From a virus (taxonomy: Duplodnaviria; Caudoviricetes): a DNA stretch of 57,719 bases. The notes under the pieces are model-generated. The model was not told the DNA's origin. It saw only the letters and a program-made list of their open reading frames with translations, and searched no databases. The stretch is from positions 1 to 57,719 of IMG/VR virus record IMGVR_UViG_3300029309_000042; one strand, written 5' to 3'. Numbering within the stretch: the stretch's first letter is position 1; each line of letters opens with the position of its first letter. Below, piece after piece: positions 8,055-39,813 of this stretch. Both the position numbers and the translations under genes were made by a program.

Positions 8055-8081
8055 AAAAAAAGAGCGACTGTAAAGTCGCTC
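8055..8081 (-). terminator. Intrinsic terminator after the major capsid gene
   Basis: 8-bp stem GAGCGACT/AGTCGCTC followed by T7 on the minus strand. Confidence 0.8.
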
Positions 8082-8106
8082 CTTAGTCTCCAAGGGGATC
8101 CTTGAA

Positions 8107-22925: not shown

Positions 22926-23122
22926 TCAGTATCTACTATTTGCTCAATGTGGTCAGCAGTGCATCCACAAGCGTGAAGTTTGCTAACTAATCTTATCTTA
23001 GCGTTTTTCACATTAGTAACGCTCCTGCTATCTTTCCAACCATAATCTAAACTAATTTCATCATGGTATTCTTCAATGGCTTGATCAATCTCGTCTTGCC
23101 ATAACTGTTTTACTTTACCCAT
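22916..23122 (-). CDS. Hypothetical protein
   Basis: MGKVKQLWQD; coupled ORF with GGAGG RBS. Confidence 0.55.
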   Translation of the reverse strand: MGKVKQLWQDEIDQAIEEYHDEISLDYGWKDSRSVTNVKNAKIRLVSKLHACGCTADHIEQIVDTECP

Positions 23123-23459
23123 CGGCTTCCTCCTTTACAAAAATGCCGTCAACTAATTTACCCTTACGTTCTTTAATATCGTTGAACGCTCTGTGTAAAC
23201 ATGTCCGTAAGCTAAGACCATTACGAACGGCTATATTAATCAATACAACTAATATATCACCAATAGCATCAGCAGTTTGATAGTTGGCTAATGGCTTTTC
23301 ATTACGCAATGCTCTTGCTAACTCACCGACTTCCTCGGTGAGCTTTGCTAGTTGTGCCTGATCGGTGCTACCATCAATCAGGTTTCTTTTGTGATGCCAA
23401 TCAACAACGGCTTGATGCAGTTCTTTGAAGGTCATCCCCATATAATTAGGTATCGTCAT
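23115..23459 (-). CDS. MazG-like nucleotide pyrophosphohydrolase
   Basis: KLTEEVGELA...DAIGDILVVL...IKERKGKLVDGIFVKE. Confidence 0.85.
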   Translation of the reverse strand: MTIPNYMGMTFKELHQAVVDWHHKRNLIDGSTDQAQLAKLTEEVGELARALRNEKPLANYQTADAIGDILVVLINIAVRNGLSLRTCLHRAFNDIKERKGKLVDGIFVKEEADG

Positions 23460-25269: not shown

Positions 25270-25552
25270 CTTGCTCCAATGTAAAATCATACTGGGTTTG
25301 CGTAGTCATGCCCTCTTGGTTTTCCCAGAAGTCATCATCACGATCGTAAGGGTGGCGTGGTTTATCAGCATCTGTTTTTTTAAACTGCACTACACGATTA
25401 TTAGTAGGCTTTTCATAAAACGATTGTATAAACCTCAAAGCATTTTCCATGCTGTCTGCCATGTGTTTTTGTATGTGGATACCGTGATAGTATCGCACAA
25501 GATACTTGTTACCAAGTTCATATATTTCAAATTTAGGCTCTAAGGGCTTCAT
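25250..25552 (-). CDS. Hypothetical protein
   Basis: Likely start MKPLEP. Confidence 0.5.
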   Translation of the reverse strand: MKPLEPKFEIYELGNKYLVRYYHGIHIQKHMADSMENALRFIQSFYEKPTNNRVVQFKKTDADKPRHPYDRDDDFWENQEGMTTQTQYDFTLEQDDDKTD

Positions 25553-26021
25553 AATATCCTTCCTCCATAAAAAATGGTTTAGGTCGCTTTGTCCATTTAG
25601 CAAACCGACTTTTTTCATAATAGTAGTATTTGCGATAAGCTTTTACTACATCAGGGTTTTTGTACTCATCAGGCATAGCTTGTGGTAGCTCAGTTATTAT
25701 TCCAGGAGGAATATAATCTAAACACTCATTACCAACTTGCGATAATACTTTTTCACAATCATGTGTTCTACCATATCTAAAAGTATACTCTTTACATAAG
25801 GCAAATCCAAACATGAGCAACCAAAAGAAATTACCTTTAGTTCTGCCTCCCCATAAAGTGCATGGATGTTTGGCATGAACTGGTAGATATGGTGGACTCA
25901 TATATTTATGTGCGATTGTGCAGATCATCTGCGTTGTTTCCAACGGCATTTTGACAATGTGTTTATCACAATGATACTGAACACATTTATCCATACTGTT
26001 ATCCAGCAAAAATATATTCAT
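25533..26021 (-). CDS. Pyrimidine-dimer DNA glycosylase (endonuclease V)-like protein
   Basis: MNIFLLD...HCDKHIVKMPLETTQM...HPCTLW...EYTFRYG...PQAMPDEYK...AYRKYY. Confidence 0.75.
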   Translation of the reverse strand: MNIFLLDNSMDKCVQYHCDKHIVKMPLETTQMICTIAHKYMSPPYLPVHAKHPCTLWGGRTKGNFFWLLMFGFALCKEYTFRYGRTHDCEKVLSQVGNECLDYIPPGIITELPQAMPDEYKNPDVVKAYRKYYYYEKSRFAKWTKRPKPFFMEEGYYEALRA

Positions 26022-26516: not shown

Positions 26517-27038
26517 TCAAATGATTAATTTTAAATGTCGTAAGACTTGCCTGACTGGTTCAAAGTCGGAGAGCGAAGAGTAATTGTCCATAAGATAGTT
26601 AACACCAGTCTGCATAATAAGTTTCATGCGAGGGTTACTATCATTAAGTTTATGACAGTACATGACTAACTCAAGCATATCTGCCATTTTTAATCTGTTT
26701 GTTTCACGTTCTGTTAACACAAAGTTTATACCTAGATCCTTAGCTACTTTGTCTTCTGCTTTTTTAAATGCTTTCTTTATTTCAGGGTATTCCCACTTAG
26801 CCGTCGCTGGGATATCACCTAATACTATCTCAGGTACGTCGTGATAGAGAGCAGAGAGCAATAGACTCTTGGAGCAGTTATCCCATAGTTGGTCCAATAA
26901 AACTACGACGGCATAAGAGTGAGCACCCACAGTTTGCCTCAATCCGCCAAGTGGTACAGTGTGATACCGATTAATAAATTGTGCATCATATATAGTTTCA
27001 ATCTTATCATAATTAATTTGGTTGCTCACTGTGTCCAC
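26517..27038 (-). CDS. HD-domain 5'-deoxynucleotidase (YfbR/DatZ-like)
   Basis: RYH...QTVGAHS...ALYHDVPEIVLGDIP...LKMADMLE. Confidence 0.85.
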   Translation of the reverse strand: MDTVSNQINYDKIETIYDAQFINRYHTVPLGGLRQTVGAHSYAVVVLLDQLWDNCSKSLLLSALYHDVPEIVLGDIPATAKWEYPEIKKAFKKAEDKVAKDLGINFVLTERETNRLKMADMLELVMYCHKLNDSNPRMKLIMQTGVNYLMDNYSSLSDFEPVRQVLRHLKLII

Positions 27039-28920
27039 TACTTAATCCTCTTGTCCATGGTTTATCACTGAGTGTTTGTTTTGCCTCACCCCAACTATTA
27101 CCAAGCTCAACATCTACTACACTTGGCACTTGTAGAGTTACACACTCTTCCATAATTTCTTGTATTTGTTTACATTGCTTTTCACTTGTTACACTTATGT
27201 CAAGTTCATCATGTACTTGTATCATTGGTAATATTCCTTCTTTATGTAAAGCGACCATCGCTTGTTTGGTTTGATCTGCGGCTGAGCCTTGTATAAGTTT
27301 GTTGAGGGCTTTATAAGTAAAACACCTTTTGATAGCTGGACCATGTTCAGCGTACGCGTCTTCATATGATAGTGGTTTGAATGTTCCATACATGTTTGGT
27401 TCCCACTTATCAAACCTACACTTACGACCTAACAGTGTTCGTATTACACCTTTCTTACTTGCTTTATTCATTGCAAAGGTAGCTAACTCTTGTACGAAAG
27501 GAACTTTGGCATGGTACTCAGCGAAGAGTTCTTGTGCATCTTCATACTCCAAGCCTAACTGCTCTGCTAATTTATTCTTACCCATTCCATAAAACAGACC
27601 TAAGTTTATATCTTTTGCTTGTTTCCTAGGAACTCCAACAATATCTGCGGCGAGTTGGTGGAAGTCAGTCATTTTATCTTTTGCATATTCAGCAACAAAC
27701 TTTTCTGCCCCAGTAAACTTCATCAATCCTGCATAATGAACAACTAATCGAGGCTCTTGGCTACTGTAATCAAACGCACCCCACAAACTATCTTCCTCAG
27801 GTAGAAACAAACTACGTATCATTGGACCTATCTCAGCATTCCTTGCAGGAACTTGCTGAAGGTTAGGATTAGTATAACTAAATCTACCAGTGACAGTGCC
27901 ACCACCATCACTACGCAGAGGGTGAGCTTCGGCATATATTCTACCATTATGTTGGTGTTTGAGTATTGTATCAATAAATGTAGTTCTAGCTTTATTTAGT
28001 TCCCTTGCCCTAACGACTGCACGAGGTAACTCATGTTCATGGTTAGCTAGAAAGTTTTTAGTGAAGCTTGGTGCATCTATCTTTTGCGTTCTAGGATACT
28101 TCAGCCCAACTTCATCAAATGCTTTCGCAATGGACTGAGCCGCCCAGATATCAATATCTTGACCACCTACAGAAGCTAATACTTCTTGCTCTTGCTTTTC
28201 TAACCTATCCTTTAACACTTCTGCTTTTTCTAAATCTACTCTAACTCCTTGTTTTCGCATGGCTAATACGACTTGGAGTACATTAGTTTCTAGTGTAAAT
28301 ATATCGTTAATATCTTCTTTAGCCATCTCAGTCTGGAACCGTTTCCATAACTTTAATGTTAAACTTGCATCTTGTTCTGCGTAGGCTCCAACAAAGTGAG
28401 CAGGAAGTTTCCACATCTCGCTTTTAGCATTGACTCCAAAAGACTGAGCGGCTTCATTAAGTTCTGCTTCATTCTTACGTTCACCTAGATAATCACGACC
28501 AAGTGCATTTAGAGCATAACTAAATCTATTTTCATCAAGTAATGCTCCTACTATCATAGTATCAATAATCCTACCTTTTATATCAATACCTTCTCGCCAT
28601 AACCATCCAGCATCATACAAAGCATTATGCATAATATAATCACGATCAATGCTACATAAATCTTTTACCCATGCGAGTGTTTGGTTGGGGTCAAGGTTGC
28701 CACCATTCTGGTGTCGTATCGGGAAGTACCATGAGTCAGCTCCAGCAGATACTGCTACTCCTATAACTTCGCCATCACCTCTAGCCCAACCACTACCGTG
28801 TGACAGTAAGTTAGGGTCTCTAGTTTCTAAGTCAATCGCTACTTCTTTTGCATGGGCTAAGTTAGGATAGCCATCTGGCATAACCCACTCAGTCGGTGGT
28901 GTGAACAACGGGAACTGCAT
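27013..28920 (-). CDS. polA: DNA polymerase, family A, with 3'-5' exonuclease
   Basis: IDLET exonuclease; TGRFSYTNPNLQQVP; DYSSQEPR motif A; KDINLGLFYG motif B; IQGSAAD; QVHDEL motif C. Confidence 0.95.
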   Translation of the reverse strand: MQFPLFTPPTEWVMPDGYPNLAHAKEVAIDLETRDPNLLSHGSGWARGDGEVIGVAVSAGADSWYFPIRHQNGGNLDPNQTLAWVKDLCSIDRDYIMHNALYDAGWLWREGIDIKGRIIDTMIVGALLDENRFSYALNALGRDYLGERKNEAELNEAAQSFGVNAKSEMWKLPAHFVGAYAEQDASLTLKLWKRFQTEMAKEDINDIFTLETNVLQVVLAMRKQGVRVDLEKAEVLKDRLEKQEQEVLASVGGQDIDIWAAQSIAKAFDEVGLKYPRTQKIDAPSFTKNFLANHEHELPRAVVRARELNKARTTFIDTILKHQHNGRIYAEAHPLRSDGGGTVTGRFSYTNPNLQQVPARNAEIGPMIRSLFLPEEDSLWGAFDYSSQEPRLVVHYAGLMKFTGAEKFVAEYAKDKMTDFHQLAADIVGVPRKQAKDINLGLFYGMGKNKLAEQLGLEYEDAQELFAEYHAKVPFVQELATFAMNKASKKGVIRTLLGRKCRFDKWEPNMYGTFKPLSYEDAYAEHGPAIKRCFTYKALNKLIQGSAADQTKQAMVALHKEGILPMIQVHDELDISVTSEKQCKQIQEIMEECVTLQVPSVVDVELGNSWGEAKQTLSDKPWTRGLSSGHSEQPN

Positions 28921-29065
28921 CTTCTTTTACTCTCACTTTCATTGGTGTGCCACATCTCATACAGATGTTCCACTTGTTTTTTAATTTACGGAAAGTAGTT
29001 TCAATACGAACATTACATTCCTCACAAGAGGCTATTGCCTTTGTATCTAAGTTTACTTTGTTCAT
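28889..29065 (-). CDS. Small zinc-ribbon protein (58 aa)
   Basis: Hand translation MNKVNLDTKAIASCEECN...ICMRCGTPM...; ATGA overlap. Confidence 0.5.
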   Translation of the reverse strand: MNKVNLDTKAIASCEECNVRIETTFRKLKNKWNICMRCGTPMKVRVKEDAVPVVHTTD

Positions 29066-29370
29066 TTACCCTTTGTTCGCATGTGTGCTTCTACTAATAA
29101 TAAATAACGTCGCAAGTCTTTAATATCATCCATAAGCCCCTCAGGTCTTTTGTCCTCCTCTAAGGCTAGAAAAATATCATATGTATAATCATGAACTTGT
29201 TTTTCAATACGATCCCACTTACGAGCTAACATCATAAAAGCACCAATACCACCTCGTTTACGCCAACTATCGCCATAGTCTTCTTCGGCTCTGTCGAGTG
29301 AAGTCCAGTCCTCTGCACATATAATTTCTGTTTGTTTTATAATAGGGCTATATTCTTTTTGTTTTGTCAT
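29062..29370 (-). CDS. Nucleotide modification associated domain 1 (Nmad1/DUF1599-like) protein
   Basis: DYGDSWRKRGGIGAFMMLARKWDRI...DLRRYLLL. Confidence 0.7.
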   Translation of the reverse strand: MTKQKEYSPIIKQTEIICAEDWTSLDRAEEDYGDSWRKRGGIGAFMMLARKWDRIEKQVHDYTYDIFLALEEDKRPEGLMDDIKDLRRYLLLVEAHMRTKGK

Positions 29371-30362
29371 TTGAGTTTGTCCTTTCTACGATCAATCCAC
29401 TCTTTACATGCAATATGCCAGTCCTCCGACTTGATTTCTGACAAAGCATCCATACATTCTAAGTAGCTTTTAGTTTTCCATGATGTCCATAACTTCCACA
29501 TTGGTAAAGCTACCTCAGAAAATATCTTGTTTTTAAAATCTTTACGCATTTGACCAACCATAAATATTTTTAATTCTTCATCAAATGTTTTAGGGTAAGT
29601 CATCAAAGGCGTTTGATATTCTATTTGCCTAACTGCATACGAATCATAGTCAGGTTGCATATCTTTTAGTGGAGTAAGTGTGTCTAAATAAGCATGAAGG
29701 TTATGTGTAAACTGAGTATAAAAACCTATATTCACACCACACATACTCGCTATATATTCTTGTAAATAACTCATATGAACTGCATTAGCACCACAACAAC
29801 CCCATATCAAATCATTACTTCTGTTACACACAGTCATGTCTAAAAACCCATCACGAATACTAAAATAAACATGAGTATTACAAGGTAAATCTTTACTAGT
29901 GTTTAAGTGCGTTAAGTCTTGCTTTGCATCCCACATTGCCAACACTGCACGTCTATCATTTTTGTAAGAGGTTAAGCGTTCAATTATTATTTTAAGTTGG
30001 TCAAACTCAAAATGTTTTCTCCACCTATAACCATAAGCACCTTGCAGAGTTTTACCATCATCACTAAAGTCACTCATACGTTTGTTGTAATATTCTACTG
30101 TTTCTAAATCACGCATACCGTTCAGCATCCAGAGTGATTCCATGAAGTGAAATATTGGGTTAGCATCACGCTGTTCGTAGAACATAACTCTTTCTTGTGG
30201 GTGATTATAAGTAATCGCAACTGGTGTAGGAAACTCAAGAGCAGTACCCACTCTAGTTTCTATCTTTCTACCCACTTGCATGATTGATTGTTTAGCTAAG
30301 TGTAAAGCTTCTGAGACGTTGCCTACTACAAAAGTTTCTACACCATACATTCTTTTATACAT
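29367..30362 (-). CDS. Thymidylate synthase-family dUMP hydroxymethylase
   Basis: DLPCN catalytic Cys; RSNDLIWGCCGAN with the Asn that specifies dUMP; NLHAY; clustered with a 5-hmdU DNA kinase. Confidence 0.8.
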   Translation of the reverse strand: MYKRMYGVETFVVGNVSEALHLAKQSIMQVGRKIETRVGTALEFPTPVAITYNHPQERVMFYEQRDANPIFHFMESLWMLNGMRDLETVEYYNKRMSDFSDDGKTLQGAYGYRWRKHFEFDQLKIIIERLTSYKNDRRAVLAMWDAKQDLTHLNTSKDLPCNTHVYFSIRDGFLDMTVCNRSNDLIWGCCGANAVHMSYLQEYIASMCGVNIGFYTQFTHNLHAYLDTLTPLKDMQPDYDSYAVRQIEYQTPLMTYPKTFDEELKIFMVGQMRKDFKNKIFSEVALPMWKLWTSWKTKSYLECMDALSEIKSEDWHIACKEWIDRRKDKLK

Positions 30363-30439
30363 ATGTCCCCCTTTCTTTGGAGCTTTTTAAAGCCTCACGA
30401 GGCTTGGAATGTTATGTTTAGCACCTAACCTACCTAAAA

Positions 30440-31480
30440 CTAAATCAACTTATCAGAGGGCAAGTTAATAAAGTCATAAACTGGTTTGACTGCTTTAGTA
30501 TAACTATTACCACCACAAGCTTGTTCAATAAAGTTATTTGTCATCGCTGTGGGCTTCGGTAGCTCGTACTTACCCATTCTGTCAGGTAACAACCCATTAC
30601 GGATTGTAGTATTATCGCAACCATTACAAGCACCGAAGTTCCGTTGTCCGTGGTACAGTTTCACTCTAGCTGAGTAAAACGCATCATTGTTCCACAGTTC
30701 ATCCATGCCATTGTAGTCGTGTATATTACCACACTTATAGATGCCAGTCCAGTCATTGCAACATAGTGCTACATTACCGTCCCAACGAACACTTAGTTCA
30801 CGGAAAGGTTTTGCACATCGTTTGTCTTGTTGTTTGTAGTTTAATGGGAAAGCAGATCCAGCATGGTTGCTGACCTGAGCATGTGTACCACTCGTTGCTA
30901 TTGTTAAATCAGCACCGACTACAATTAATTTTTCTTTTGGTTTTCTTCTTTTATGAGGATTACCCTCTGGGTTTTGTGGATACTCTACAACTTTATGAGG
31001 TCCATTGTAATTAGCTTTTATTTTATCAACAATACGGATACGTTCATAATTATCTAAAAACAAAATGTTAAGTCCTGCATCCATAAGATCGTTAACTTTA
31101 TTACTTACATTACCGAGTAAACCACCCCCATTACTTGTCATCATAATAGAGGCTTTTGGAAAATACTGCCTAGTTGTTTGTATGAATACACAATACTCAG
31201 GGTGCATAGTCGGCTCACCGTGCATGGCAAACTCAAAGCGTGGATTCCAACTACTGTTTTTTATGTTCGTTAAAACCCTCAGTAGAGTATTACGTGTCAT
31301 AAATTTATACTCTTTAGAGTTTTTGCCATGCGTCCAACTTGGACCATCAGCACCATTATCTCTTATTTGTTGTATGCCACAAAAAGAACAAGCGAGGTTA
31401 CAACCCTCAGTTAATTCAATTTGTACTGCGTTCGGGGCATCCTGCTTTAAACGCTCGTTGCCATTGCACTCTAACGTCAT
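30440..31480 (-). CDS. Radical SAM enzyme with SPASM/twitch domain
   Basis: CNLACSFC (CX3CX2C); HGEP; C-terminal C...CCND...C...CNGC. Confidence 0.85.
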   Translation of the reverse strand: MTLECNGNERLKQDAPNAVQIELTEGCNLACSFCGIQQIRDNGADGPSWTHGKNSKEYKFMTRNTLLRVLTNIKNSSWNPRFEFAMHGEPTMHPEYCVFIQTTRQYFPKASIMMTSNGGGLLGNVSNKVNDLMDAGLNILFLDNYERIRIVDKIKANYNGPHKVVEYPQNPEGNPHKRRKPKEKLIVVGADLTIATSGTHAQVSNHAGSAFPLNYKQQDKRCAKPFRELSVRWDGNVALCCNDWTGIYKCGNIHDYNGMDELWNNDAFYSARVKLYHGQRNFGACNGCDNTTIRNGLLPDRMGKYELPKPTAMTNNFIEQACGGNSYTKAVKPVYDFINLPSDKLI

Positions 31481-32210
31481 ATCTTTTTTTCATTCCTTCC
31501 CAACCAGTTTTAGTTTCTTTTTCAACGACTTTAACAAACTCTGGAAACTTGGTGGCTAATTCATAACTAGCTTTTTCTTGTAACTCAGGTGTTCTGTAAT
31601 TACTACAACCTCCCTTTTGTCCGCTACCACCACGCTGATCCCATGTCCAGTCTACTATTACTGCATTTGGTTTACCTCTAGCAAATAAAGATAGAGTCAT
31701 GTAATAGTCTTCCATAAGTTCTACATCATTGTATCTAATATTTAATTTACCAATGTCAAGTGGTCGTAAACCATGCACTGCATTGATACGCATACCATGT
31801 TTGAGGGTATGGGGATAATGTTTATCATTCATTTGGCGAGGGCTAACACCGACATGCCAATACTCATTTAATAAATGTTCCATACGTTGAAACAAATACT
31901 GCATATCATCTTCAGTTGTTTTACGCAAACTTGGTCCGTGATTGCTAATACGTTTACCAAATATTAAATCATCATCTAACATAATAATTTTATCTTGTCC
32001 ATGTTCAATGGCATGATCCATTATAAATTCACGCACATTGTTTATGCCACTTACGTCGCCTCTTGACAACACATTTCTTCCATAATTTAAATGATACTTT
32101 ACTTCACTTTCAGGGCAAACTAAACAAGCCCTTTGTCTAGCCCACTCACCAATACTTCTCCAAGTTGTTTGTGTCGCAGTACGACCTCTTGTTGGTATAT
32201 ATATTTTCAT
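31416..32210 (-). CDS. GT-A fold glycosyltransferase, TET-associated (TAGT)/GREB1-like
   Basis: IYIPTRGR...REFI...MLDDD...MEDYYMTL...GGCS motifs. Confidence 0.75.
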   Translation of the reverse strand: MKIYIPTRGRTATQTTWRSIGEWARQRACLVCPESEVKYHLNYGRNVLSRGDVSGINNVREFIMDHAIEHGQDKIIMLDDDLIFGKRISNHGPSLRKTTEDDMQYLFQRMEHLLNEYWHVGVSPRQMNDKHYPHTLKHGMRINAVHGLRPLDIGKLNIRYNDVELMEDYYMTLSLFARGKPNAVIVDWTWDQRGGSGQKGGCSNYRTPELQEKASYELATKFPEFVKVVEKETKTGWEGMKKRYDVRVQWQRAFKAGCPERSTN

Positions 32211-32211
32211 T

Positions 32212-33114
32212 TTAGTCTCCGTTTACTGGTCCCTTTGGTATGCTTTGCATAACTTCTTTAAATTTACTTCTTGGTTTACCTTGACCAAGCCTTACTCTTT
32301 CGTATTTATCCCACTCACATAAACTATGTTCAATACAACGCATGTCTACATCATCATGATCGATTATATCCCAATCGACATACTTATGTTTTTCAGCTAA
32401 TATATTTTGCATGAACCTATTAGCTCGTTCTTGTGAGTGCATCTTTTTGAGGGGGTAACCATGTATCCTATTTATACCCCTCATTGCTCCTGGTCCTGCG
32501 TTCGCCCAACTAAAACGGTCTGTCGCCTTGTCCAGTACAGATGTGTAGTTGAGGTCGGAAACGACTTCGTAAGACATAAAGCCCCCTCCTCCCCACCCTT
32601 TATAGGCAGACAACGCATTGTGTACGGCTTGTAACGACTGAGTCTCGGACGCAAGTTTTCCAAGCGAGACTTGACTCTGGTAAATCGGTACAAGGAACTC
32701 ATATACAACAACCTCCGCTTTTGGTTTTTTAATACCTTGATTAGTTATTATATACGCTCCAGTGAATGTTTTTAAACCATGTTTAATTCTATTTGAAATT
32801 AAATTTACAGTATGCTCAGGATCCCACTCTAATGCGTCAGCATGTACCCAACCATGTACTTCAGCGAACTCCATAGTGCCTACCATTCTAAACAAGCAAC
32901 AGTTGAATATTATTTCACCAAAGGGGCGATTGTTGTGTGGGTCAGTCCATGCTTTTCGCATATAGACTGTGGTACGGTCGTTTTCCCTAAATGGGTTTGT
33001 AAATTTATATTCACGCAAAATAGGGTCTTCAGTCCATGGTGGACTGTCGCCCCTGACTCTAGCTAAATAAATGGCATGACGTTCATTTATCCAGTTGTAA
33101 AAATTTTCTATCAT
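32212..33114 (-). CDS. 5-hmdU DNA kinase (aGPT-Pplase clade 1)
   Basis: ERHAIY...PPWTEDPILREYKFTNPFRENDR...FMSYEVVSDL...GPGAMRG...IEHSLCEWDKY. Confidence 0.85.
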   Translation of the reverse strand: MIENFYNWINERHAIYLARVRGDSPPWTEDPILREYKFTNPFRENDRTTVYMRKAWTDPHNNRPFGEIIFNCCLFRMVGTMEFAEVHGWVHADALEWDPEHTVNLISNRIKHGLKTFTGAYIITNQGIKKPKAEVVVYEFLVPIYQSQVSLGKLASETQSLQAVHNALSAYKGWGGGGFMSYEVVSDLNYTSVLDKATDRFSWANAGPGAMRGINRIHGYPLKKMHSQERANRFMQNILAEKHKYVDWDIIDHDDVDMRCIEHSLCEWDKYERVRLGQGKPRSKFKEVMQSIPKGPVNGD

Positions 33115-33234
33115 TTGTCCTCCTTATTACTTTTCTTGCTAAAACTCTATAACCTTTTTTCTTATATTTTTTTGCATCTTTTTCAACATAAGTTTCTTTA
33201 ATTTTAACACCGTCTTTAGATATATAGAACTTTC

Positions 33235-33417
33235 TCACTTTGTGTTTATTCCCACTAAATGTTTAAAGTTAGTGACTACAACGTAATTAGATTTGTGCAT
33301 TGGTACAACAGTGTGAACAACTTGCTTTGCCTCTGCATCACCACAAGCTAAGCAAGTAGTGTATCCTAACTCTACTCGCTTAGTTGTAATAGTTTCGCTA
33401 CACTTCCTGCAGAGCAT
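33235..33417 (-). CDS. C4 zinc-finger protein (DksA/TraR-like)
   Basis: MLCRKCSETITTKRVELGYTTCLACG. Confidence 0.55.
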   Translation of the reverse strand: MLCRKCSETITTKRVELGYTTCLACGDAEAKQVVHTVVPMHKSNYVVVTNFKHLVGINTK

Positions 33418-33781
33418 GGGTGTAATTCCAAATAGCTTGTGATAAAATTCTAAGTGCAGAACCTCTACCAAACTTTTCGGACGCATCTTGCTGAGCACCA
33501 TGTAAACCAAACACTCTTACCAAAGCATCAGCTATTGAAGAAGACATAACACCTTGTACATCTTTAATAACCTCACCCTCCTCATCGTATATTGTGTACT
33601 TAGGATTGCTTGTATCTGATTTATAGGTGCGAGCATAGTTCATGACAAACTCCTCGGGTAAACCTAAATCAGTAAATGCAGTGGGCTTAAATATAGTGTG
33701 AGCATCACCCATAACTTCCCAATAGTCTTTTTCATTACTATTTTTTATTGCTTCAAATAATATTTCTTTACTATCTGACAT
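33398..33781 (-). CDS. Hypothetical protein
   Basis: GAAAGG RBS, promoter-like upstream region. Confidence 0.55.
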   Translation of the reverse strand: MSDSKEILFEAIKNSNEKDYWEVMGDAHTIFKPTAFTDLGLPEEFVMNYARTYKSDTSNPKYTIYDEEGEVIKDVQGVMSSSIADALVRVFGLHGAQQDASEKFGRGSALRILSQAIWNYTHALQEV

Positions 33782-35312: not shown

Positions 35313-36830
35313 TTAGTTAGGTATTGAGTATCCTTGGGAATACATCGGTTGTATTAAGTGTAGATTTTTTATAGCTCTAGTTAAGCCAACATAAAAGACA
35401 CGAGCTTCATCATAGTGTGCATTCTCAAACTTTCGCCACATAGAGTATGAACGCTTCATAGTATCTGTTAACATTAGAACATTTGTGGCTTGAGCTCCTT
35501 TGGCTGAATGAATGGTAGAGATACGGATACGAGGAACTGTTGTTAATGATTCACCTTTACGAAGACATGCTTTAATATATCGTCGGTCAGACTCAGGTAT
35601 CTTACCAAGTCCCTCATCCCATGGAAGACTGTGTAATAATCCATGGAAGTCTTGCAAATCTTGTAGACTATAGAGCTCTCCATCTACTCCTTTGGGTAAA
35701 GTCTTATGTCCATACTCTACTTGTTTTCCAAGTATCATTTGCTTATAGACTGTTTTAACTTGTTCCATCCTTAGCCTATCCCCTGACCGAAGTTTTTCCC
35801 ACAACCTAACTGCTTCTAAAACTCTTGAGTCAATCGAACTACTACCATTGTAGATATACAAATGCCCTCGCCTTCTTACTTCTTCCTCAAGTTGTTTTGC
35901 CCCACGAGTGGTTCTGCTCAGTAATAACCAATCCCCTTCAGATATATTTACCATCTCAGAGTGGCGATACCAGTTTACTGTACCTTCCTCAGCTCTTGGC
36001 AAAAATTGTTTCTTACGTCTGCCAACAACAGTGCTGATAACACTTTGACTTAATCTATGGTGTAAAGAAGGTATCCTAAAACTTTGATTTAAAACAGTAA
36101 CTTCTCCTTCTAACCCAATAAAGTAATCTACATCAGCTCCTGCATATCTAAATATTGCTTGATCATCATCTCCTGCCACATATATTTCTTTAGTGTTTTG
36201 TTGTAACTGATGCACCATCTCCCATTGTAAAGGTGATAAGTCTTGTGCTTCATCAATAAATACTGCTTCTAGTTTTGGAGATAACTTTCTTTTACAAAAA
36301 TATTCAAGCATATCAGTATAATCATATAACTCATATGTTTGTTTCCAATGCTCTAAACCTCTGTTTACATAATCAACCCTAGCCCAATCAGTACGCAGTG
36401 GAACAGTTGAGGCATTGTACACAGACCGTAGAGGTTGTTGTAAAATCCTTGACATATTTATAATCTCTAAAAACTTATCACCATATCCATAATCTTTAAA
36501 TGGGCTATCAGCTACATCTGACTGACCATAAAAATTACCTATTTTTAACCAATCCGATATTTCTTTATATTTAGTTTGTGTCATAATCTGTGAATGACTA
36601 ATACCAATCTGCATAAATGCTAGGCTATGAAGTGTTCTAAAAAACGGTAAGTCTTTTTTTACTAACTTAAATTTATCACATGCTCTTTCTATAGCTTCAG
36701 TCGCCGCTCTTCTTGTAAAAGCAAAGTAACCAATTTTGTCTGGTGGTACACCTGATGATATATATTGTTCTACTAATGATAATAGTTTAGTTGTTTTTCC
36801 AGTTCCAGGAGGTCCAACAACTATCTTCAT
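35313..36830 (-). CDS. UvrD/Rep-family SF1 helicase
   Basis: GPPGTGKT, FIDEAQD, AGDDDQAIF, STIHSAKG, YVGLTRA. Confidence 0.9.
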   Translation of the reverse strand: MKIVVGPPGTGKTTKLLSLVEQYISSGVPPDKIGYFAFTRRAATEAIERACDKFKLVKKDLPFFRTLHSLAFMQIGISHSQIMTQTKYKEISDWLKIGNFYGQSDVADSPFKDYGYGDKFLEIINMSRILQQPLRSVYNASTVPLRTDWARVDYVNRGLEHWKQTYELYDYTDMLEYFCKRKLSPKLEAVFIDEAQDLSPLQWEMVHQLQQNTKEIYVAGDDDQAIFRYAGADVDYFIGLEGEVTVLNQSFRIPSLHHRLSQSVISTVVGRRKKQFLPRAEEGTVNWYRHSEMVNISEGDWLLLSRTTRGAKQLEEEVRRRGHLYIYNGSSSIDSRVLEAVRLWEKLRSGDRLRMEQVKTVYKQMILGKQVEYGHKTLPKGVDGELYSLQDLQDFHGLLHSLPWDEGLGKIPESDRRYIKACLRKGESLTTVPRIRISTIHSAKGAQATNVLMLTDTMKRSYSMWRKFENAHYDEARVFYVGLTRAIKNLHLIQPMYSQGYSIPN

Positions 36831-38347
36831 TATATTACATCTTTTGGTTTAGGTATATCTGGTAACTTCATAGGTTCATTATCAGTTTCAAAGTACCCTT
36901 GAGGTAATGACCACACATGTATTCCTTTGCCTTTCACTCGCCAAAACATCTTATCCGCTTCTAAGTTCTGTAATCGCAAAGTAATCTTTGATGAGGAGTA
37001 ATGATTGAAGTCGTTTACTGATAAATGCTTTTTTATATCCTTGACTTGAAAATAAACTAATCCATCCATCCATACTGCGACTCCTTGTAATATATCATCA
37101 CGTTCAACACCCCTTGCTCTTTCGCTACAAAAAGAGTGCAATAAATCTTCAAACTCGCCTTTTATTGTAGCATCAGGTGGTACTTCCACAATAGTTAAAC
37201 TGTCCAATAATAATTGTATTCTTGTCTGCCAAGCATTTTGACTCACTGTTCTTGGTAACTTATTTATCTGTGATACACAATCTTTTTGAAACCTAGTTTG
37301 TGAAACTAAACCATCTGTGCTTAATTCTAACCTTTGTCCATCCACATTAAGTATCCATATGGGTGGGTCACCATCTATTTTTGTAAGTGCTGACATACTA
37401 TTTTGTACACCGTTTGGTCCAACACCATGTTTTCTTGTGACACATACTTCTTTATTACAATACGGTTTGATAGGTTGGTCTTCACATTTATAAAAGTAAT
37501 CTTTCCGTTGCAACTGTTTGATTACTGCTCCAACTTCAGCATGTGAAAGTGATGGTTTTAAGTAATCAAGGTTATACTTTTGTATCAAAGCTTCCCAGTT
37601 ATCAGCATCAAACATTCTTGCATAAACACCTAAATTAAATAAAGCATTATTCCTTGAACCCTCACCAAAGCCCATACTACATAAATGTTGAAGGCATGGT
37701 GGTCCATCGGGTAAGTAACTGTCTTGACTAGCATTTATCTTATAATCAGAAAACTGTTGCTTAGTGATTTTATATTTACTGGCTTTTGCAACAAAATCCT
37801 GAGGCGAGAGTATCTCTAATGTTTTTAAATCATACACCGACCTTGTACTCATTTTACCTTTAAAGTAAGGCATGTTCAAACCGTTTCCAGTATCGCCCCT
37901 TTCTACTAATATTTCAGCTTGTTTGGGAAACACTTCACCTTCTGCTTGACCCAAGCCTGATGCTATCTCTGCAAGTTTATTTTTTATTGTTGAAGCTTTT
38001 ATTGGTTCTTTAAAAAAGAAATATATATGTGCTCCACCTGATTTACTTCTTGCTACCCAACCAACTATTCTTTCTTTGCGTAATCTCTCTACTAAGTTTT
38101 TGTGGTCAACTTGATAGTTGTCAACATCTATTGCTCCCCACATACAAGTGTTATCATCCATGATGGGTATAACACCAAGACCTTGTTTGCCCTTTAAGTG
38201 ATCAATCCAATGTTGTGTCTCTAACGGCTTTTTAATAATTTTATAGACACCAGTTTTTTTCCCTACCCCATTATCATCTAGATCGACAACTCCGTAGGCT
38301 CTTTTATTGCCTTCAAATAAATTTAAAAACTGTTCTGCTAACTCCAT
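36830..38347 (-). CDS. AEP-superfamily primase (PriCT-like region)
   Basis: WGAIDVD and RSKSGGAHIY catalytic motifs; PPCL...RNNALFNLG. Confidence 0.75.
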   Translation of the reverse strand: MELAEQFLNLFEGNKRAYGVVDLDDNGVGKKTGVYKIIKKPLETQHWIDHLKGKQGLGVIPIMDDNTCMWGAIDVDNYQVDHKNLVERLRKERIVGWVARSKSGGAHIYFFFKEPIKASTIKNKLAEIASGLGQAEGEVFPKQAEILVERGDTGNGLNMPYFKGKMSTRSVYDLKTLEILSPQDFVAKASKYKITKQQFSDYKINASQDSYLPDGPPCLQHLCSMGFGEGSRNNALFNLGVYARMFDADNWEALIQKYNLDYLKPSLSHAEVGAVIKQLQRKDYFYKCEDQPIKPYCNKEVCVTRKHGVGPNGVQNSMSALTKIDGDPPIWILNVDGQRLELSTDGLVSQTRFQKDCVSQINKLPRTVSQNAWQTRIQLLLDSLTIVEVPPDATIKGEFEDLLHSFCSERARGVERDDILQGVAVWMDGLVYFQVKDIKKHLSVNDFNHYSSSKITLRLQNLEADKMFWRVKGKGIHVWSLPQGYFETDNEPMKLPDIPKPKDVI

Positions 38348-38436
38348 AACTTCTCCTTTATGAAGCCCTAGCAAATGCAAACAAGGAGGTGCTAGGGCTT
38401 CTACCTAATAATAAACAACAAAATTACTAGGTAATC

Positions 38437-39267: not shown

Positions 39268-39813
39268 TTACTTTCTCCTTATTTTAGTTTGTAAACCTAA
39301 AAATACACCAAATATATCATGAGGTATATTTTCACCTTTTCCAGTTTGTTCCTTAACAAACGACTTTAAAGTTTGTGGCTCTACCCAAACTTTATTTGTA
39401 ACTGCCATGCCCTGACCTTGTAAGTCAGCTAATAAATCTTTAGCCTTATTATCTTCGTTCCTACCAAATGAAGCCGTAACAGTATTCTTTATCAAACTTC
39501 CAAAACCATTAGAAGTTAACCAATCATGTGCATCTTTACGATTAGCTTCTGATATGTGTGCCGAAACAAAATCAGTAACCGTAATCTCATGTCCATCTTC
39601 TGTTTGCAAAGTTTTTAAGTTTTGTTCTTGCATAGCAGAGGGTAACAAGTCTTGTGATATTTCTCTTAGCACCCTTTCAGTTTCTTTTAGTTCAGCCTTG
39701 AGTTCTTTTACTCTATCCTCAAGTTGTAGTTGTTTTTTACACAAAGAACTGACATTACTCAATCCTTGTTCGCTTACTTTAGTAAGCTCATTTGCAGTTG
39801 TTTCAAAATCCAT
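39268..39813 (-). CDS. Conserved replication-module protein
   Basis: Coiled coil followed by WL..NGFGSLIKN...VEPQTLKSFVKE. Confidence 0.6.
   Translation of the reverse strand: MDFETTANELTKVSEQGLSNVSSLCKKQLQLEDRVKELKAELKETERVLREISQDLLPSAMQEQNLKTLQTEDGHEITVTDFVSAHISEANRKDAHDWLTSNGFGSLIKNTVTASFGRNEDNKAKDLLADLQGQGMAVTNKVWVEPQTLKSFVKEQTGKGENIPHDIFGVFLGLQTKIRRK

What the first reader, a model, noticed from the sequence alone, without database searches (positions are those of the whole stretch)
29062..33114. Unusual 5-hmdU hypermodification operon: kinase + TAGT-like glycosyltransferase + SPASM radical SAM, no amino-acid:DNA transferase
Seen: tightly packed genes kinase-GT-rSAM, followed by dUMP hydroxymethylase-Nmad1-PolA-HD. 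Established: in ViI, M6 and phiW-14, the 5-hmdU kinase is followed by an aGPT-Pplase2 amino-acid:DNA transferase, while TAGT-type GTs are usually linked to TET/JBP enzymes. I recognise neither an aGPT-Pplase2 nor a TET/JBP gene here. Inference: the product may be a sugar or sugar-phosphate adduct on hmdU, further tailored by the radical SAM enzyme, i.e. a possibly uncharacterised base.
Basis: partly seen in the sequence, partly recalled or inferred. Interest (0 to 1): 0.82.

Follow-up and report, generated by a model that had tools for sequence, protein, structure and literature searches.

The report
Kinase-less thymine hypermodification gene cassette
A marine phage carries a conserved gene set that probably turns thymine into a sugar-bearing base by a route lacking the usual activating kinase, and the resulting base has not been characterised.

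Summary
The five tightly packed minus-strand genes are real, but the "kinase" label is wrong. The 300-aa protein (33114-32212) is only the helical domain once called aGPT-Pplase clade 1 (Pfam PF18723, now HMUDK_hel). It is the counterpart of phage M6 gp55, not of the P-loop kinase gp54. The whole 57.7-kb record (CheckV 97% complete) has no P-loop 5-hmdU kinase, no amino-acid:DNA transferase (PF18724) and no Tet_JBP.

The other genes are a TAGT GT-A glycosyltransferase, a radical SAM enzyme closest to BtrN (a Twitch-type dehydrogenase), a dUMP-hydroxymethylase-like TS homologue, PolA and an HD nucleotidase.

The cassette is widespread. Among 40 non-redundant IMG/VR loci with full flanks around the radical SAM gene, 40 have a DNA glycosyltransferase, 38 the clade-1 protein and 38 the TS homologue. 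None has the kinase.

More distant loci keep TAGT, the clade-1 protein and TS without the radical SAM gene, as does cultured phage PhiJL001.

The TS/PPlase1/glucosyltransferase grouping was already noted in HTVC023P-type pelagiphages (Wittmers 2022), without the radical SAM gene or the missing kinase.

Best reading: a glycosylated 5-hmdU derivative whose sugar is tailored by the radical SAM enzyme. The role of the clade-1 protein, which keeps the catalytic Glu/Cys motif, is unresolved.

The parts
32212..33114 (-). aGPT-Pplase clade 1 / HMUDK_hel protein (300 aa). It is a helix-hairpin-helix glycosylase-like, all-helical protein with no P-loop. It is the counterpart of M6 gp55 and PhiJL001 gp19 and has invariant C266, E267 and K270.
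   Evidence: Pfam PF18723, E 3.5e-49, full length. tblastn hits M6 gp55 at 5e-41 and PhiJL001 gp19 at 3e-43. AF2 model has pLDDT 89.9. Best solved fold is PaMx11 gp46/PUGT 8z2m_A, Z 10.8, 222 residues aligned, rmsd 4.0. Invariant residues come from 29 homologues. The motif is shared with M6 gp55, PhiJL001 gp19 and M6 gp51.
31416..32210 (-). TAGT-family GT-A glycosyltransferase (264 aa) with an invariant DDD (DxD) motif. Presumed DNA glycosyltransferase acting on the 5-hydroxymethyl group.
   Evidence: PF20691, 65.9 bits against a cut-off of 27.5; phrog_842, 1.8e-42. D79, D80, D81, E167 and D168 are invariant in 21 homologues. tblastn finds 7 phage records, including the PhiJL001 'glucosyl transferase'.
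30440..31480 (-). Radical SAM enzyme (346 aa) with a CX3CX2C motif (C27, C31, C34) and a BtrN-like auxiliary-cluster domain. Its start overlaps the end of the TAGT gene by 65 nt if the ATG at 31480 is used.
   Evidence: Pfam hits. Invariant Cys. A profile of 20 homologues finds only BtrN in the PDB, E 3.3e-12. phmmer aligns four Cys with BtrN. AF2 model has pLDDT 72.3. Foldseek top hit is BtrN 4m7t, E 1.4e-10, TM 0.73 on target length, followed by anSME, SpeY, DesII and BlsE.
29367..30362 (-). Thymidylate-synthase-fold enzyme (331 aa), most likely a dUMP hydroxymethylase.
   Evidence: PF00303, 9.2e-21; phrog_5131, 2.9e-107. About 45% identity to the TS homologues of M6/Yua-like phages and 43.5% to PhiJL001 gp24. 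The closest solved protein is MilA CMP 5-hydroxymethylase, 4.2e-20, ahead of all thymidylate synthases. The Cys aligned with MilA's is kept, and Asn stands where MilA has Asp.
29062..29370 (-). Conserved 102-aa protein of unknown family lying between the TS homologue and PolA.
   Evidence: No family found in Pfam, PHROGs or NCBIfam. tblastn finds it in 42 of 80 radical-SAM loci.
27013..28920 (-). Family A DNA polymerase with a 3'-5' exonuclease domain. It would incorporate 5-hmdUTP.
   Evidence: PF00476, 2e-59; PF01612, 2.5e-08. Best phage matches are 023Pt_psg01 (56%) and Pelagibacter phages HTVC027P and HTVC023P (51-52%).
26517..27038 (-). HD-domain, YfbR-like 5'-deoxynucleotidase. Presumed to shape the nucleotide pool (exclusion of dTMP).
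   Evidence: PF12917, 1.8e-10. 37% identity to M6 gp59. Present in 48 of 80 loci.
23115..23459 (-). MazG-type nucleotide pyrophosphohydrolase. It may belong to the same dNTP-pool control. Its link to the cassette is inferred only.
   Evidence: PF03819, 2.2e-05, 25.1 bits against a cut-off of 22.

Best explanation
This is a kinase-independent thymidine-hypermodification cassette of an HTVC023P-like marine phage.

Step 1 (inferred from homology). The TS-fold enzyme makes 5-hydroxymethyl-dUMP. Host kinases raise it to the triphosphate, and the phage PolA puts 5-hmdU into DNA. The HD nucleotidase, and perhaps MazG, keep dTTP or dUTP out.

Step 2 (inferred from family and context). The TAGT GT-A enzyme transfers a sugar from a host NDP-sugar to the hydroxymethyl oxygen of 5-hmdU in DNA. 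This gives a base-J-like 5-(glycosyloxymethyl)uracil.

Step 3 (inferred from fold). The BtrN-like radical SAM enzyme, almost always encoded next to the glycosyltransferase, uses a 5'-deoxyadenosyl radical to tailor the sugar. The most likely reaction is oxidation of a secondary alcohol to a ketone, either on DNA or on the donor.

Step 4 (unresolved). The clade-1 aGPT-Pplase/HMUDK_hel protein binds DNA and flips out the modified base. It pairs with the glycosyltransferase here as it pairs with, or is fused to, the P-loop kinase in M6- and SP10-type systems. Because it keeps the Glu/Cys motif that is catalytic in the clade-2 transferases, it may also act chemically at C5/C6.

The final base is an uncharacterised glycosylated thymine derivative that would protect the DNA from host nucleases.
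For: Domain calls are.

Absence of other routes:
- PF18748, PF02223, PF18724 and PF12851 find nothing in the 97%-complete record.
- The PF18748 search finds M6 gp54 as a positive control.
- PF18748 is also absent from complete PhiJL001 and from three relatives that are 82-94% complete.

TS homologue:
- It is closest to those of M6-like phages, whose bases derive from 5-hmdU (PMC5889632 and PMC8989533, passages).
- It is closest in the PDB to a hydroxymethylase, and it has Asn at the position where MilA has Asp.

Conservation around the radical SAM gene. 168 relatives were found in IMG/VR and the best 80 loci were examined.
- All 80 loci: glycosyltransferase 78, TS 75, clade-1 protein 70.
- 40 non-redundant loci with at least 5 kb on both sides: 40, 38 and 38, with all four genes in 37.
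- The nearest GT lies within 100 bp of the radical SAM gene in 59 of the 78 loci that have one.
- All these genes are on one strand in 80 of 80 loci.
- Gene order differs between distant loci.
- Where TAGT is missing, a second family takes its place next to the radical SAM gene. It gives weak Pfam Glycos_transf_1 hits, and its nearest ESM-Atlas clusters are T4 AGT (PF11440) and GT1. It is present in 30 of 80 loci and is the only GT in 17.

Conservation around TAGT. Among 46 loci whose TAGT is under 50% identical to the window's:
- 40 have the clade-1 protein, adjacent within 150 bp in 33.
- 42 have TS, 4 have the radical SAM gene, and none has the kinase or AADT.

Sugar context elsewhere: a cytidylyltransferase/mannose-6-P-isomerase fusion in L039, a GT9 in L043 and a SAM methyltransferase in L078.

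Radical SAM enzyme: BtrN is the only PDB hit of the family profile and the best fold match. Other top fold matches (SpeY, DesII, BlsE) are named in the hit titles; that they act on sugars or cyclitols is recalled.

Clade-1 protein: its fold is nearest PUGT, the clade-2 transferase that flips the base.
Against: - No chemistry is shown. Every step is inferred from homology and gene neighbourhood.
- The TAGT acceptor could be something other than 5-hmdU. Characterised relatives act on 5hmC (Pyle et al.).
- The sequence cannot separate a hydroxymethylase from a methylating TS or from the newly described 5-hydroxy-dCMP synthases (PMC13326640, abstract). Only the Asn and the nearest relatives argue for dUMP hydroxymethylation.
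- The invariant Cys/Glu/Lys of the clade-1 protein is hard to explain if it is a mere adaptor.
- M6 gp55 was dispensable in lysate reconstitution, so the function of this family is unknown even in studied phages.
- The radical SAM model has only moderate confidence (pLDDT 72.3). A shared fold does not fix the substrate.
- The radical SAM gene is absent from most distant TAGT/clade-1/TS loci (4 of 46), so it is an add-on rather than part of the core.
- tblastn with single queries may miss divergent kinases in the loci. HMM searches of whole records were run on only six records, counting the M6 control.
Confidence: 0.5

Rival explanations
1. Glycosylation replaces phosphorylation as the activating step. 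TAGT puts a sugar on 5-hmdU. The clade-1 Pplase then attacks C6 with its conserved Cys and expels the sugar through an exocyclic methylene, as clade-2 enzymes expel phosphate. It then adds another nucleophile. The final base is therefore not a simple O-glycoside, and the radical SAM enzyme processes the new substituent.
For: The clade-1 protein keeps the E-x3-C motif (window E262/C266) in the same C-terminal position as Glu243/Cys247 of M6 gp51 and PaMx11 PUGT. Mutating these residues abolishes activity in clade 2 (PMC8989533, section 17). TAGT and the clade-1 gene are adjacent in 33 of 40 distant loci, and no kinase is present.
Against: A glycosyl oxygen is a poorer leaving group than phosphate (my own chemical reasoning). 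No gene for a donor nucleophile or further tailoring (PLP, FAD) was seen near the cassette in the window. The profile comparison between clade 1 and M6 gp51 is not significant on its own (E 0.093).
Confidence: 0.15
2. The clade-1 Pplase first installs a hydroxyl-bearing linker on the C5 methylene of 5-hmdU without prior phosphorylation. TAGT then glycosylates that linker and the radical SAM enzyme tailors it. The result would resemble the 'glycosylated linker on C5' bases of SP-15/YerA41-type phages.
For: Bases with a glycosylated linker at C5 of thymine exist in SP-15, YerA41 and Carin-5, and aGPT-Pplase genes mark related phages (PMC13697223, passages). The clade-1 protein has a catalytic-looking motif.
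Against: No activating enzyme for 5-hmdU is present. No linker-biosynthesis gene was found in the window. The window's PolA is not reported as a match to the SP-15-type fused UDG polymerases. Its best matches are HTVC023P-type.
Confidence: 0.13
3. One reading: a 5-hmdU DNA kinase phosphorylates 5-hmdU, and the GT builds a sugar-phosphate adduct.
For: The Pfam name of PF18723 contains the word 'kinase'. In other phages the helical domain is fused to a P-loop kinase: 15 of the 18 long homologues found carry PF02223 or PF18748.
Against: The window protein is the helical domain only. No Walker A motif and no PF18748 or PF02223 match exists anywhere in the record. In M6 the kinase activity lies in the separate gp54, and SP10 gp186 keeps its activity without the C-terminal part (PMC8989533, passages).
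Confidence: 0.04
4. The GT and radical SAM pair does not modify DNA. It would act on a nucleotide, a host surface glycan or another target (for example a viperin-like anti-host function) and would merely sit in the replication module.
For: Pyle et al. list 'pVip' annotations near phage GTs. NCBIfam gives a weak viperin-family hit for the radical SAM core (E 3.8e-4, far below the cut-off). About 65% of GT-containing contigs in that study had no base-modification neighbour.
Against: All 40 non-redundant full-flank loci pair the radical SAM gene with a GT, and 38 of 40 also have the TS homologue and the clade-1 protein. TAGT is defined as a DNA-modification family. The second GT family is nearest T4 DNA alpha-glucosyltransferase in the ESM Atlas.
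Confidence: 0.08
5. The TS homologue is an ordinary dTMP synthase or makes another 5-substituted pyrimidine (for example a 5-hydroxy pyrimidine). The acceptor for glycosylation would then not be 5-hmdU.
For: TS homologues that make 5-hydroxy-dCMP and feed glycosylation were described recently (PMC13326640, abstract). The sequence cannot prove hydroxymethylase activity.
Against: Asn rather than Asp stands at the position where the cytosine-specific MilA has Asp. The closest relatives are the TS homologues of M6-like phages. The protein co-occurs with the HMUDK_hel family, which is tied to 5-hmdU systems.
Confidence: 0.06

Closest known systems
Thymidine hypermodification clusters of Pseudomonas phages M6 and PaMx11 (Lee et al. 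2018, 2021)
   Same: The dUMP-hydroxymethylase-like TS is about 45% identical, and the HD hydrolase and PolA lie beside it. A clade-1 aGPT-Pplase (M6 gp55, 32% identity) sits in the same module. The SN1 announcement gives the same cassette list.
   Different: M6 also has the P-loop 5-hmdU kinase gp54, the clade-2 amino-acid:DNA transferase gp51, a PLP decarboxylase and an SPL-like radical SAM isomerase. None of these has a homologue here. Here a TAGT glycosyltransferase and a BtrN-like radical SAM enzyme take their place.
[quoted passage not shown] 2022, PMC9599517)
   Same: Very probably the same cassette in the same phage lineage. The window's PolA is 56% identical to that of 023Pt_psg01, which I take by its name to be from that study. 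The passages name TS, PPlase1, the deoxynucleotidase and the glucosyltransferase lying close to PolA.
   Different: The main text of that paper never uses the word 'radical' (0 occurrences). It treats the system as M6-like and does not remark that the kinase and the clade-2 transferase are absent. Its figures and supplements could not be seen.
Alphaproteobacteria phage PhiJL001 (AY576273), genes gp19 to gp28
   Same: A cultured marine phage with the clade-1 protein (gp19, 35% identity), a TAGT-like 'glucosyl transferase' (gp22, 27%), the TS homologue (gp24, 43.5%), an HD protein and PolA in one block. There is no PF18748 kinase anywhere in the complete genome.
   Different: tblastn finds no radical SAM homologue in it. 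It represents the core cassette without the add-on.
Base J synthesis in kinetoplastids (JBP1/2 plus JGT) and phage TET/5mYOX + GT-A pathways (Burke 2021; Pyle 2023/2024)
   Same: A GT-A fold enzyme transfers a sugar to a 5-hydroxymethylpyrimidine in DNA. Pyle et al. report that phage GT-A models match a putative JGT structurally.
   Different: Here the hydroxymethyl group would be made before replication by a TS homologue, not by a dioxygenase. No Tet_JBP is present. A clade-1 Pplase and a radical SAM enzyme are added.
BtrN, the radical SAM 2-deoxy-scyllo-inosamine dehydrogenase of butirosin biosynthesis (PDB 4m7s, 4m7t)
   Same: The CX3CX2C core is followed by one C-terminal auxiliary-cluster domain with the same four aligned Cys. 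BtrN is the best sequence and fold match.
   Different: Identity is only about 17-18% in the fold alignment. The viral family is about 80 residues longer and has large low-confidence insertions. Its substrate is unknown.

Membership tests
[quoted passage not shown] | P-loop kinase domain (Pfam PF18748 HMUDK_HMUD1, or PF02223 in fused forms) | tested here: not met
   No match at E<=10 anywhere in the 57.7-kb record. The same PF18748 search finds M6 gp54 at 1.1e-19. tblastn with M6 gp54 gives only a chance hit at E 0.12 on the opposite strand.
[quoted passage not shown] | Walker A motif | tested here: not met
   A regex scan of all six frames finds the motif on the coding strand only in the UvrD-like helicase at 35313-36830.
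aGPT-Pplase clade 1 / HMUDK_hel (PF18723) | Full-length match to the family model above its cut-off | tested here: met
   168.1 bits against a cut-off of 25, residues 2-277 on profile positions 4-277 of 281. The six-frame search gives 168.6 bits.
aGPT-Pplase clade 1 / HMUDK_hel (PF18723) | Helix-hairpin-helix DNA-glycosylase-like helical fold | tested here: met
   The AF2 model (pLDDT 89.9) is all-helical. VIA-align gives PUGT Z 10.8, DUF2419 Z 9.7, Mag1 Z 9.7 and many HhH glycosylases at Z 6-9. These Z values are in the range where helical proteins can match by arrangement alone.
Amino-acid:DNA transferase (clade 2 aGPT-Pplase, PF18724 ADDT) | Match to the family model | tested here: not met
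   No match at E<=10 in the record. tblastn with M6 gp51 finds nothing.
Amino-acid:DNA transferase (clade 2 aGPT-Pplase, PF18724 ADDT) | Essential Glu and Cys (E243 and C247 in PaMx11 PUGT and M6 gp51) | tested here: inconclusive
   The window protein has E262-x3-C266 in a similar motif at the same C-terminal position. C266 is invariant in 29 homologues, but the Glu at position -4 is Gln in some. The only alignment linking the two clades is weak (E 0.093).
TAGT (TET-associated glycosyltransferase, PF20691) | Match above the cut-off and a GT-A DxD motif | tested here: met
   65.9 bits against a cut-off of 27.5. D79-D80-D81 are invariant in 21 homologues.
TAGT (TET-associated glycosyltransferase, PF20691) | Genomic association with a TET/JBP dioxygenase | tested here: not met
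   PF12851 finds nothing in the record. The gene is instead associated with a TS homologue, in 42 of 46 distant TAGT loci.
Radical SAM superfamily | CX3CX2C cluster motif and a Radical_SAM model match | tested here: met
   C27, C31 and C34 are invariant. The match is 32.4 bits against a cut-off of 29.5.
SPASM subfamily (two auxiliary clusters, seven-Cys motif; the definition is recalled) | Seven conserved Cys in the C-terminal domain | tested here: not met
   The Pfam SPASM model matches (37.7 bits), but only five Cys are invariant after the core (C222, C240, C241, C285, C288).
BtrN-like Twitch radical SAM dehydrogenases | Four Cys of the single auxiliary cluster, and overall fold | tested here: met
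   phmmer aligns C222, C240, C285 and C288 with four BtrN Cys. BtrN is the top Foldseek hit, E 1.4e-10, TM 0.73 on target length. It is the only PDB hit of the family profile. That these four Cys bind BtrN's auxiliary cluster is recalled.
BtrN-like Twitch radical SAM dehydrogenases | Oxidation of a secondary alcohol on a sugar or cyclitol | not testable with these tools
   Inferred only from fold neighbours (BtrN, SpeY, DesII, BlsE) and from the adjacent glycosyltransferase.
dUMP hydroxymethylase (TS superfamily) | TS fold, catalytic Cys, and Asn that selects uracil | tested here: met
   PF00303, 74.6 bits. In the alignment with MilA the Cys is kept, and the window has Asn where MilA has Asp. 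The roles of these residues are recalled from the TS and dCMP-hydroxymethylase literature.
dUMP hydroxymethylase (TS superfamily) | Water rather than hydride completes the reaction (hydroxymethyl, not methyl, product) | not testable with these tools
   Only indirect evidence. The nearest relatives are the TS homologues of M6-like phages, and a hydroxymethylase is the closest solved structure.
Nmad1 (recalled as Pfam DUF1599, PF07659) for the 102-aa protein | Match to the family model | tested here: inconclusive
   PF07659 finds nothing in the record at E<=10, and Pfam finds nothing at E<=1. That this accession equals Nmad1 is my recollection, and the model is short.

The most novel reading that the evidence does not exclude
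The clade-1 aGPT-Pplase is an active Cys-dependent C5-methylene transferase that needs no kinase. In these phages a glycosyltransferase, not ATP, activates 5-hmdU, or the enzyme exchanges the hydroxyl directly. Together with the BtrN-like radical SAM enzyme, the pathway would yield a thymine derivative of a chemical class not yet seen in DNA, for example a keto-sugar or carbon-linked sugar adduct. This base would be carried by a large share of abundant marine HTVC023P-like phages. It would also give the first function to the clade-1 family, which is unassigned even in M6, ViI and SP10.
Probability: 0.15. Interest if true: 0.85.

Novelty: new variant of a known kind. Interest (0 to 1): 0.62.

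Why it matters
Every thymidine hypermodification pathway worked out so far starts with phosphorylation of 5-hmdU by a P-loop kinase, followed by a clade-2 transferase. This cassette has neither. It still keeps the enigmatic clade-1 protein and pairs it with a DNA glycosyltransferase.

It therefore points to a second, kinase-free route to modified thymine and probably to an unreported glycosylated base. It also offers a clean system in which to find out what clade-1 aGPT-Pplases do.

The cassette sits in relatives of HTVC023P-type pelagiphages, which one paper describes as among the most abundant phages in the ocean (PMC9599517, passage). The modification could affect how marine viral DNA is restricted, sequenced and counted.

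PhiJL001 is a cultured phage with the core cassette, so the question can be tested directly.

Tried and rejected
- DNA-level search of the region against 50,697 phage records (blastn, distant mode) gave no match.
- tblastn of the radical SAM protein against the same records gave one weak hit (22.4% identity, an unannotated faecal phage). No cultured phage in that collection carries it.
- phmmer of the clade-1 protein and of TAGT against PDB sequences gave nothing meaningful.
- Foldseek of the clade-1 model gave no hit at E<=0.001, only weak HhH glycosylases. The VIA-align wide search was needed to bring up PUGT.
- Profile comparison of 29 clade-1 sequences with M6 gp51 gave only a 17-column local alignment at E 0.093. 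I use it as a pointer to the shared motif, not as proof of homology.
- A profile of the second glycosyltransferase family found nothing in the PDB. Its GT-B assignment rests on weak Pfam hits (E 1.3e-4 to 0.08, all below cut-off) and on ESM-Atlas neighbours, which are leads only.
- The ESM Atlas showed the radical SAM protein's relatives to be viral clusters with the same two Pfam domains. This gave no functional lead.
- Complex prediction of the clade-1 protein with the radical SAM enzyme (collected) returned 'no answer' (score 0.00 against a mark of 0.32). This is neither for nor against binding.
- A search for fused forms of the clade-1 domain among longer proteins found 18: 14 with PF02223 kinase, 1 with PF18748 kinase and 3 with family A DNA polymerase. 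None was fused to a glycosyltransferase or radical SAM domain. The tool states that finding none is weak evidence.
- Literature searches for a phage with glycosylated 5-hmU gave no such report. These were 4 terms; 6 phrases; JL001. They cover only the held open-access library.
- Iyer et al. 2013 (PMC3763556), the source of the aGPT-Pplase and TAGT names, is not held. What I say about it comes from citations in other papers or from memory.
- Supplements and figures are closed. Fig. 2 and the supplements of PMC8989533, and Fig. 3A and the data sets of PMC9599517, may show these genes, including the radical SAM gene, without my knowing.
- I considered and rejected the idea that the 127-aa, 91-aa or 51-aa ORFs upstream (33083-33781) hide a kinase. 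They have no Walker A motif and the 127-aa ORF has no Pfam hit. Two of them, the 127-aa and 91-aa ORFs, were tested and are conserved in only 4 of 80 loci.

Full report
**What is there.** The window is a whole IMG/VR virus record of 57,719 bases, rated 97% complete by CheckV. Almost all of its genes lie on the minus strand. The finding's coordinates hold five abutting minus-strand ORFs, read here in the direction of transcription.
- 33114-32212 (300 aa): Pfam PF18723 'HMUDK_hel, 5-hmdU DNA kinase, helical domain', E 3.5e-49, covering essentially the whole protein and the whole model.
- 32210-31416 (264 aa): PF20691 TAGT, 65.9 bits against a cut-off of 27.5; phrog_842, 1.8e-42.
- 31480-30440 (346 aa): Radical_SAM and SPASM models, both just above their cut-offs.
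- 30362-29367 (331 aa): thymidylate synthase fold; phrog_5131, 2.9e-107.
- 29370-29062 (102 aa): no family.
PolA with its exonuclease domain (28920-27013) and an HD/YfbR-like 5'-deoxynucleotidase (27038-26517) follow.

**The 'kinase' is not a kinase.** tblastn against phage records shows that the 300-aa protein corresponds to M6 ORF055/gp55. Some records annotate their match 'alpha-glutamyl/putrescinyl thymine pyrophosphorylase clade 1'.
- In M6 the experimentally proven 5-hmdU DNA kinase is the separate 187-aa P-loop protein gp54.
- Lysates without gp55 still gave the M6 transfer product (PMC8989533, passages and Table 1).
- The SN1 genome announcement lists the M6-type cassette as hydroxymethylase, Nmad5, aGPT-Pplase1, nucleotide kinase, rSAM, PLP enzyme and aGPT-Pplase2.
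- The Pfam name comes from fused forms. Among 18 longer homologues, 14 carry PF02223 and one carries PF18748 'HMUDK_HMUD1, 5-hmdU DNA kinase' N-terminal to PF18723. Three are fused to family A DNA polymerases.

In the window's genome there is no kinase domain.
- PF18748 and PF02223 find nothing at E<=10.
- The only Walker A motif on the coding strand is in the UvrD-like helicase.
- M6 gp54 finds nothing by tblastn.
- The PF18748 search does find M6 gp54 (E 1.1e-19) when run on the M6 record, so the test works.
- PF18724 (now named ADDT, the clade-2 amino-acid:DNA transferase) and Tet_JBP are also absent.

**The clade-1 protein looks like an enzyme, not only a handle.**
- Twenty-nine homologues down to 25% identity keep R12, D30, R43, D46, R76, F179, D187, D199, the G-P-G at 207-209, G213, C266, E267 and K270.
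- The motif around C266 recurs in M6 gp55 and PhiJL001 gp19. In slightly altered form it recurs around C247 of the clade-2 enzyme M6 gp51.
- In clade 2 this Cys and the Glu four residues before it are essential (PMC8989533, section 17). In the PaMx11 gp46/PUGT crystal structure, Glu243, Thr244 and Cys247 line the pocket that holds the flipped-out base (PMC11472151, passages).
- The AF2 model of the window protein is confident (pLDDT 89.9, pTM 0.87).
- Foldseek gives only weak helix-hairpin-helix glycosylase hits.
- An all-against-representatives structural search puts PUGT first (8z2m_A, Z 10.8, 222 residues, rmsd 4.0). Queuine-salvage DUF2419 and HhH glycosylases follow. For helical proteins such Z values are not decisive on their own.
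- The direct profile-to-sequence comparison of the two clades is weak (E 0.093).
- I therefore treat 'same catalytic dyad' as a well-founded inference, not a result.

**The other enzymes.**
- TAGT keeps an invariant DDD and an E-D pair in 21 homologues, as expected of an active GT-A enzyme.
- The radical SAM protein has the canonical CX3CX2C motif (C27, C31, C34). After the core it has only five invariant Cys.
- A profile of 20 family members hits only BtrN in the PDB (E 3.3e-12).
- phmmer aligns C222, C240, C285 and C288 with four BtrN Cys.
- The AF2 model (pLDDT 72.3) matches BtrN best (E 1.4e-10, TM 0.73 on target length). The next matches are anSME, the Twitch dehydrogenase SpeY, DesII and BlsE. 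Several of these are radical SAM enzymes that oxidise or rearrange sugars or cyclitols.
- It is therefore better described as a BtrN-like Twitch enzyme than as a two-cluster SPASM enzyme.
- The TS homologue is about 45% identical to those of M6/Yua-like phages and 43.5% to PhiJL001 gp24.
- Its closest solved relative is the CMP hydroxymethylase MilA (4.2e-20), ahead of every thymidylate synthase. In that alignment the Cys is kept, and the window has Asn where cytosine-specific MilA has Asp. This fits a uracil substrate.
- Whether the product is hydroxymethyl or methyl cannot be read from the sequence.

**How common, and how tightly linked.** The radical SAM family is large. 1,486 proteins scored E<=0.001 among 2,807 candidates. 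Many come from marine samples, on contigs of up to about 60 kb or more. Its nearest ESM-Atlas clusters are viral.

A profile scan of IMG/VR found 168 relatives, and the best 80 loci (42-88% identity) were kept. Local tblastn gave these counts.

| Gene present | All 80 loci | 40 non-redundant loci with at least 5 kb on both sides |
|---|---|---|
| TS homologue | 75 | 38 |
| Clade-1 protein | 70 | 38 |
| TAGT | 61 | 29 |
| Any glycosyltransferase | 78 | 40 |
| All four genes | 67 | 37 |
| M6-type kinase | 0 | 0 |
| Clade-2 transferase | 0 | 0 |

- Non-redundant here means radical SAM proteins clustered at 90% identity.
- The three incomplete loci in the second column are L043, L072 and L078.
- The nearest GT lies within 100 bp of the radical SAM gene in 59 of the 78 loci that have one. 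All these genes share one strand in 80 of 80 loci.
- Gene order changes among distant loci, which argues for selection on co-location rather than shared descent alone.
- Where TAGT is missing, another family sits beside the radical SAM gene. It is present in 30 of 80 loci and is the only GT in 17. It gives weak Pfam Glycos_transf_1 hits, and its nearest ESM-Atlas clusters are T4 DNA alpha-glucosyltransferase (PF11440) and GT1 families.
- Some loci add a cytidylyltransferase/mannose-6-phosphate-isomerase fusion (L039), a GT9 plus DUF2284 (L043) or a SAM methyltransferase (L078).

Scanning from the TAGT side found 160 relatives, of which 80 were kept. The first 34 of these are the same contigs as before. 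The 46 loci whose TAGT is under 50% identical to the window's gave these counts.
- Clade-1 protein in 40, adjacent within 150 bp in 33.
- TS homologue in 42.
- Radical SAM gene in only 4.
- Kinase or clade-2 transferase in none.

So the core is TAGT + clade-1 protein + TS, and the radical SAM enzyme is a frequent add-on. Cultured phage PhiJL001 has this core (gp19, gp22, gp24, with HD and PolA). It has no PF18748 kinase anywhere in its complete genome. Two near-complete relatives of the window (94% and 92%) and one 82%-complete TAGT-core contig also lack the kinase.

**Prior knowledge.**
- Wittmers et al. [quoted passage not shown] - The window's PolA is 56% identical to 023Pt_psg01 and 51-52% to HTVC027P and HTVC023P.
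- That paper equates the system with M6. Its main text does not mention a radical SAM enzyme ('radical': 0 occurrences) or the absent kinase and clade-2 transferase.
- Pyle et al. (bioRxiv 2023.12.21.572611, section 9) found GT-A-like phage GTs about evenly split between 5mYOX and ThyS neighbourhoods, and noted 'pVip' annotations nearby. The terms aGPT, Pplase, SPASM, rSAM and HMUDK do not occur in that text.
- Lee et al. 2021 surveyed metaviromes with kinase queries only (section 21). That design could not recover kinase-less cassettes.
- I found no report of a phage with glycosylated 5-hmU in the held library.

**Most likely mechanism.**
1. The TS homologue makes 5-hm-dUMP. Host kinases and the phage PolA place 5-hmdU in DNA. 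The HD nucleotidase and a MazG protein (23115-23459) bias the nucleotide pool.
2. TAGT glycosylates the hydroxymethyl oxygen, giving a base-J-like nucleotide.
3. The BtrN-like radical SAM enzyme then tailors the sugar, most simply by oxidising a secondary alcohol.
4. The clade-1 protein flips the base and partners the O-derivatising enzyme, which is a kinase elsewhere and a glycosyltransferase here. Its invariant Cys/Glu/Lys suggest it may also perform C6-thiol chemistry.

All four steps are inferences, and I give the overall scheme about 0.5. The chief rivals are these.
- The sugar serves as a leaving group for a clade-1-catalysed substitution (0.15).
- The clade-1 enzyme installs a linker that is then glycosylated, as in SP-15-type bases (0.13).

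**Verdict.** It is a new variant of the known thymidine-hypermodification systems. It is kinase-free and GT-based, and it often includes a BtrN-like radical SAM enzyme. It is partly noted in print at the annotation level but is chemically uncharacterised. Interest 0.62.

Noticed in passing
window 40441-41877 (+): The only large plus-strand gene in an otherwise minus-strand genome encodes an SNF2-family helicase (SNF2-rel_dom 1.8e-23, Helicase_C 3.9e-13). GC skew turns positive only in this 2-kb bin.
   Followed up: partly
proteins P0122, P0137, P0138: The clade-1 HMUDK_hel domain occurs fused to family A DNA polymerases. P0138 is DNA_pol_A 81-431 plus HMUDK_hel 519-794. This suggests the domain can work at the replication fork, much as UDG is fused to PolA in SP-15-type phages.
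   Followed up: partly
L039:5117-5980: A fusion of a cytidylyltransferase-like domain with a mannose-6-phosphate-isomerase/cupin domain lies between the clade-1 gene and the GT-B-like gene next to the radical SAM gene. This hints that some relatives make their own activated sugar.
   Followed up: partly
L043:2567-3499 and 8025-8672; L078:5200-6063: Two loci have TAGT and the radical SAM gene but no clade-1 protein within 7 kb. L043 adds a GT9-family glycosyltransferase and a DUF2284 metal-binding protein. L078 adds a class I SAM methyltransferase.
   Followed up: partly
window 31416-31480: The radical SAM ORF, if it starts at the ATG at 31480, overlaps the 3' end of the TAGT gene by 65 nt. Homologues start about 10-17 residues further in, so the true start may be later or translation may be coupled.
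   Followed up: no
window 25533-26021 (-): A T4 endonuclease V-like 'pyrimidine dimer DNA glycosylase' domain protein (Pyr_excise 1.6e-05; phrog_624 2.2e-52) lies just downstream of the HD gene. It is kept in 29 of 80 related loci. Its relation to a modified-thymine genome is unexplored.
   Followed up: no
window 36830-38380 and 38437-39813 (-): The primase is of the archaeo-eukaryotic type and matches the AEP-TOTE model (4.4e-17). The two genes upstream of it in the direction of transcription match Pam3 phage gp34-like and gp33-like families (4.2e-61 and 8.5e-32).
   Followed up: no
L079:6307-7014: In one locus a 235-aa ORF with a glycine-rich, P-loop-like stretch sits between the GT-B-like gene and the radical SAM gene. 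It has no Pfam family (best hit E 0.09). It could be a sulfotransferase- or kinase-like tailoring enzyme.
   Followed up: no
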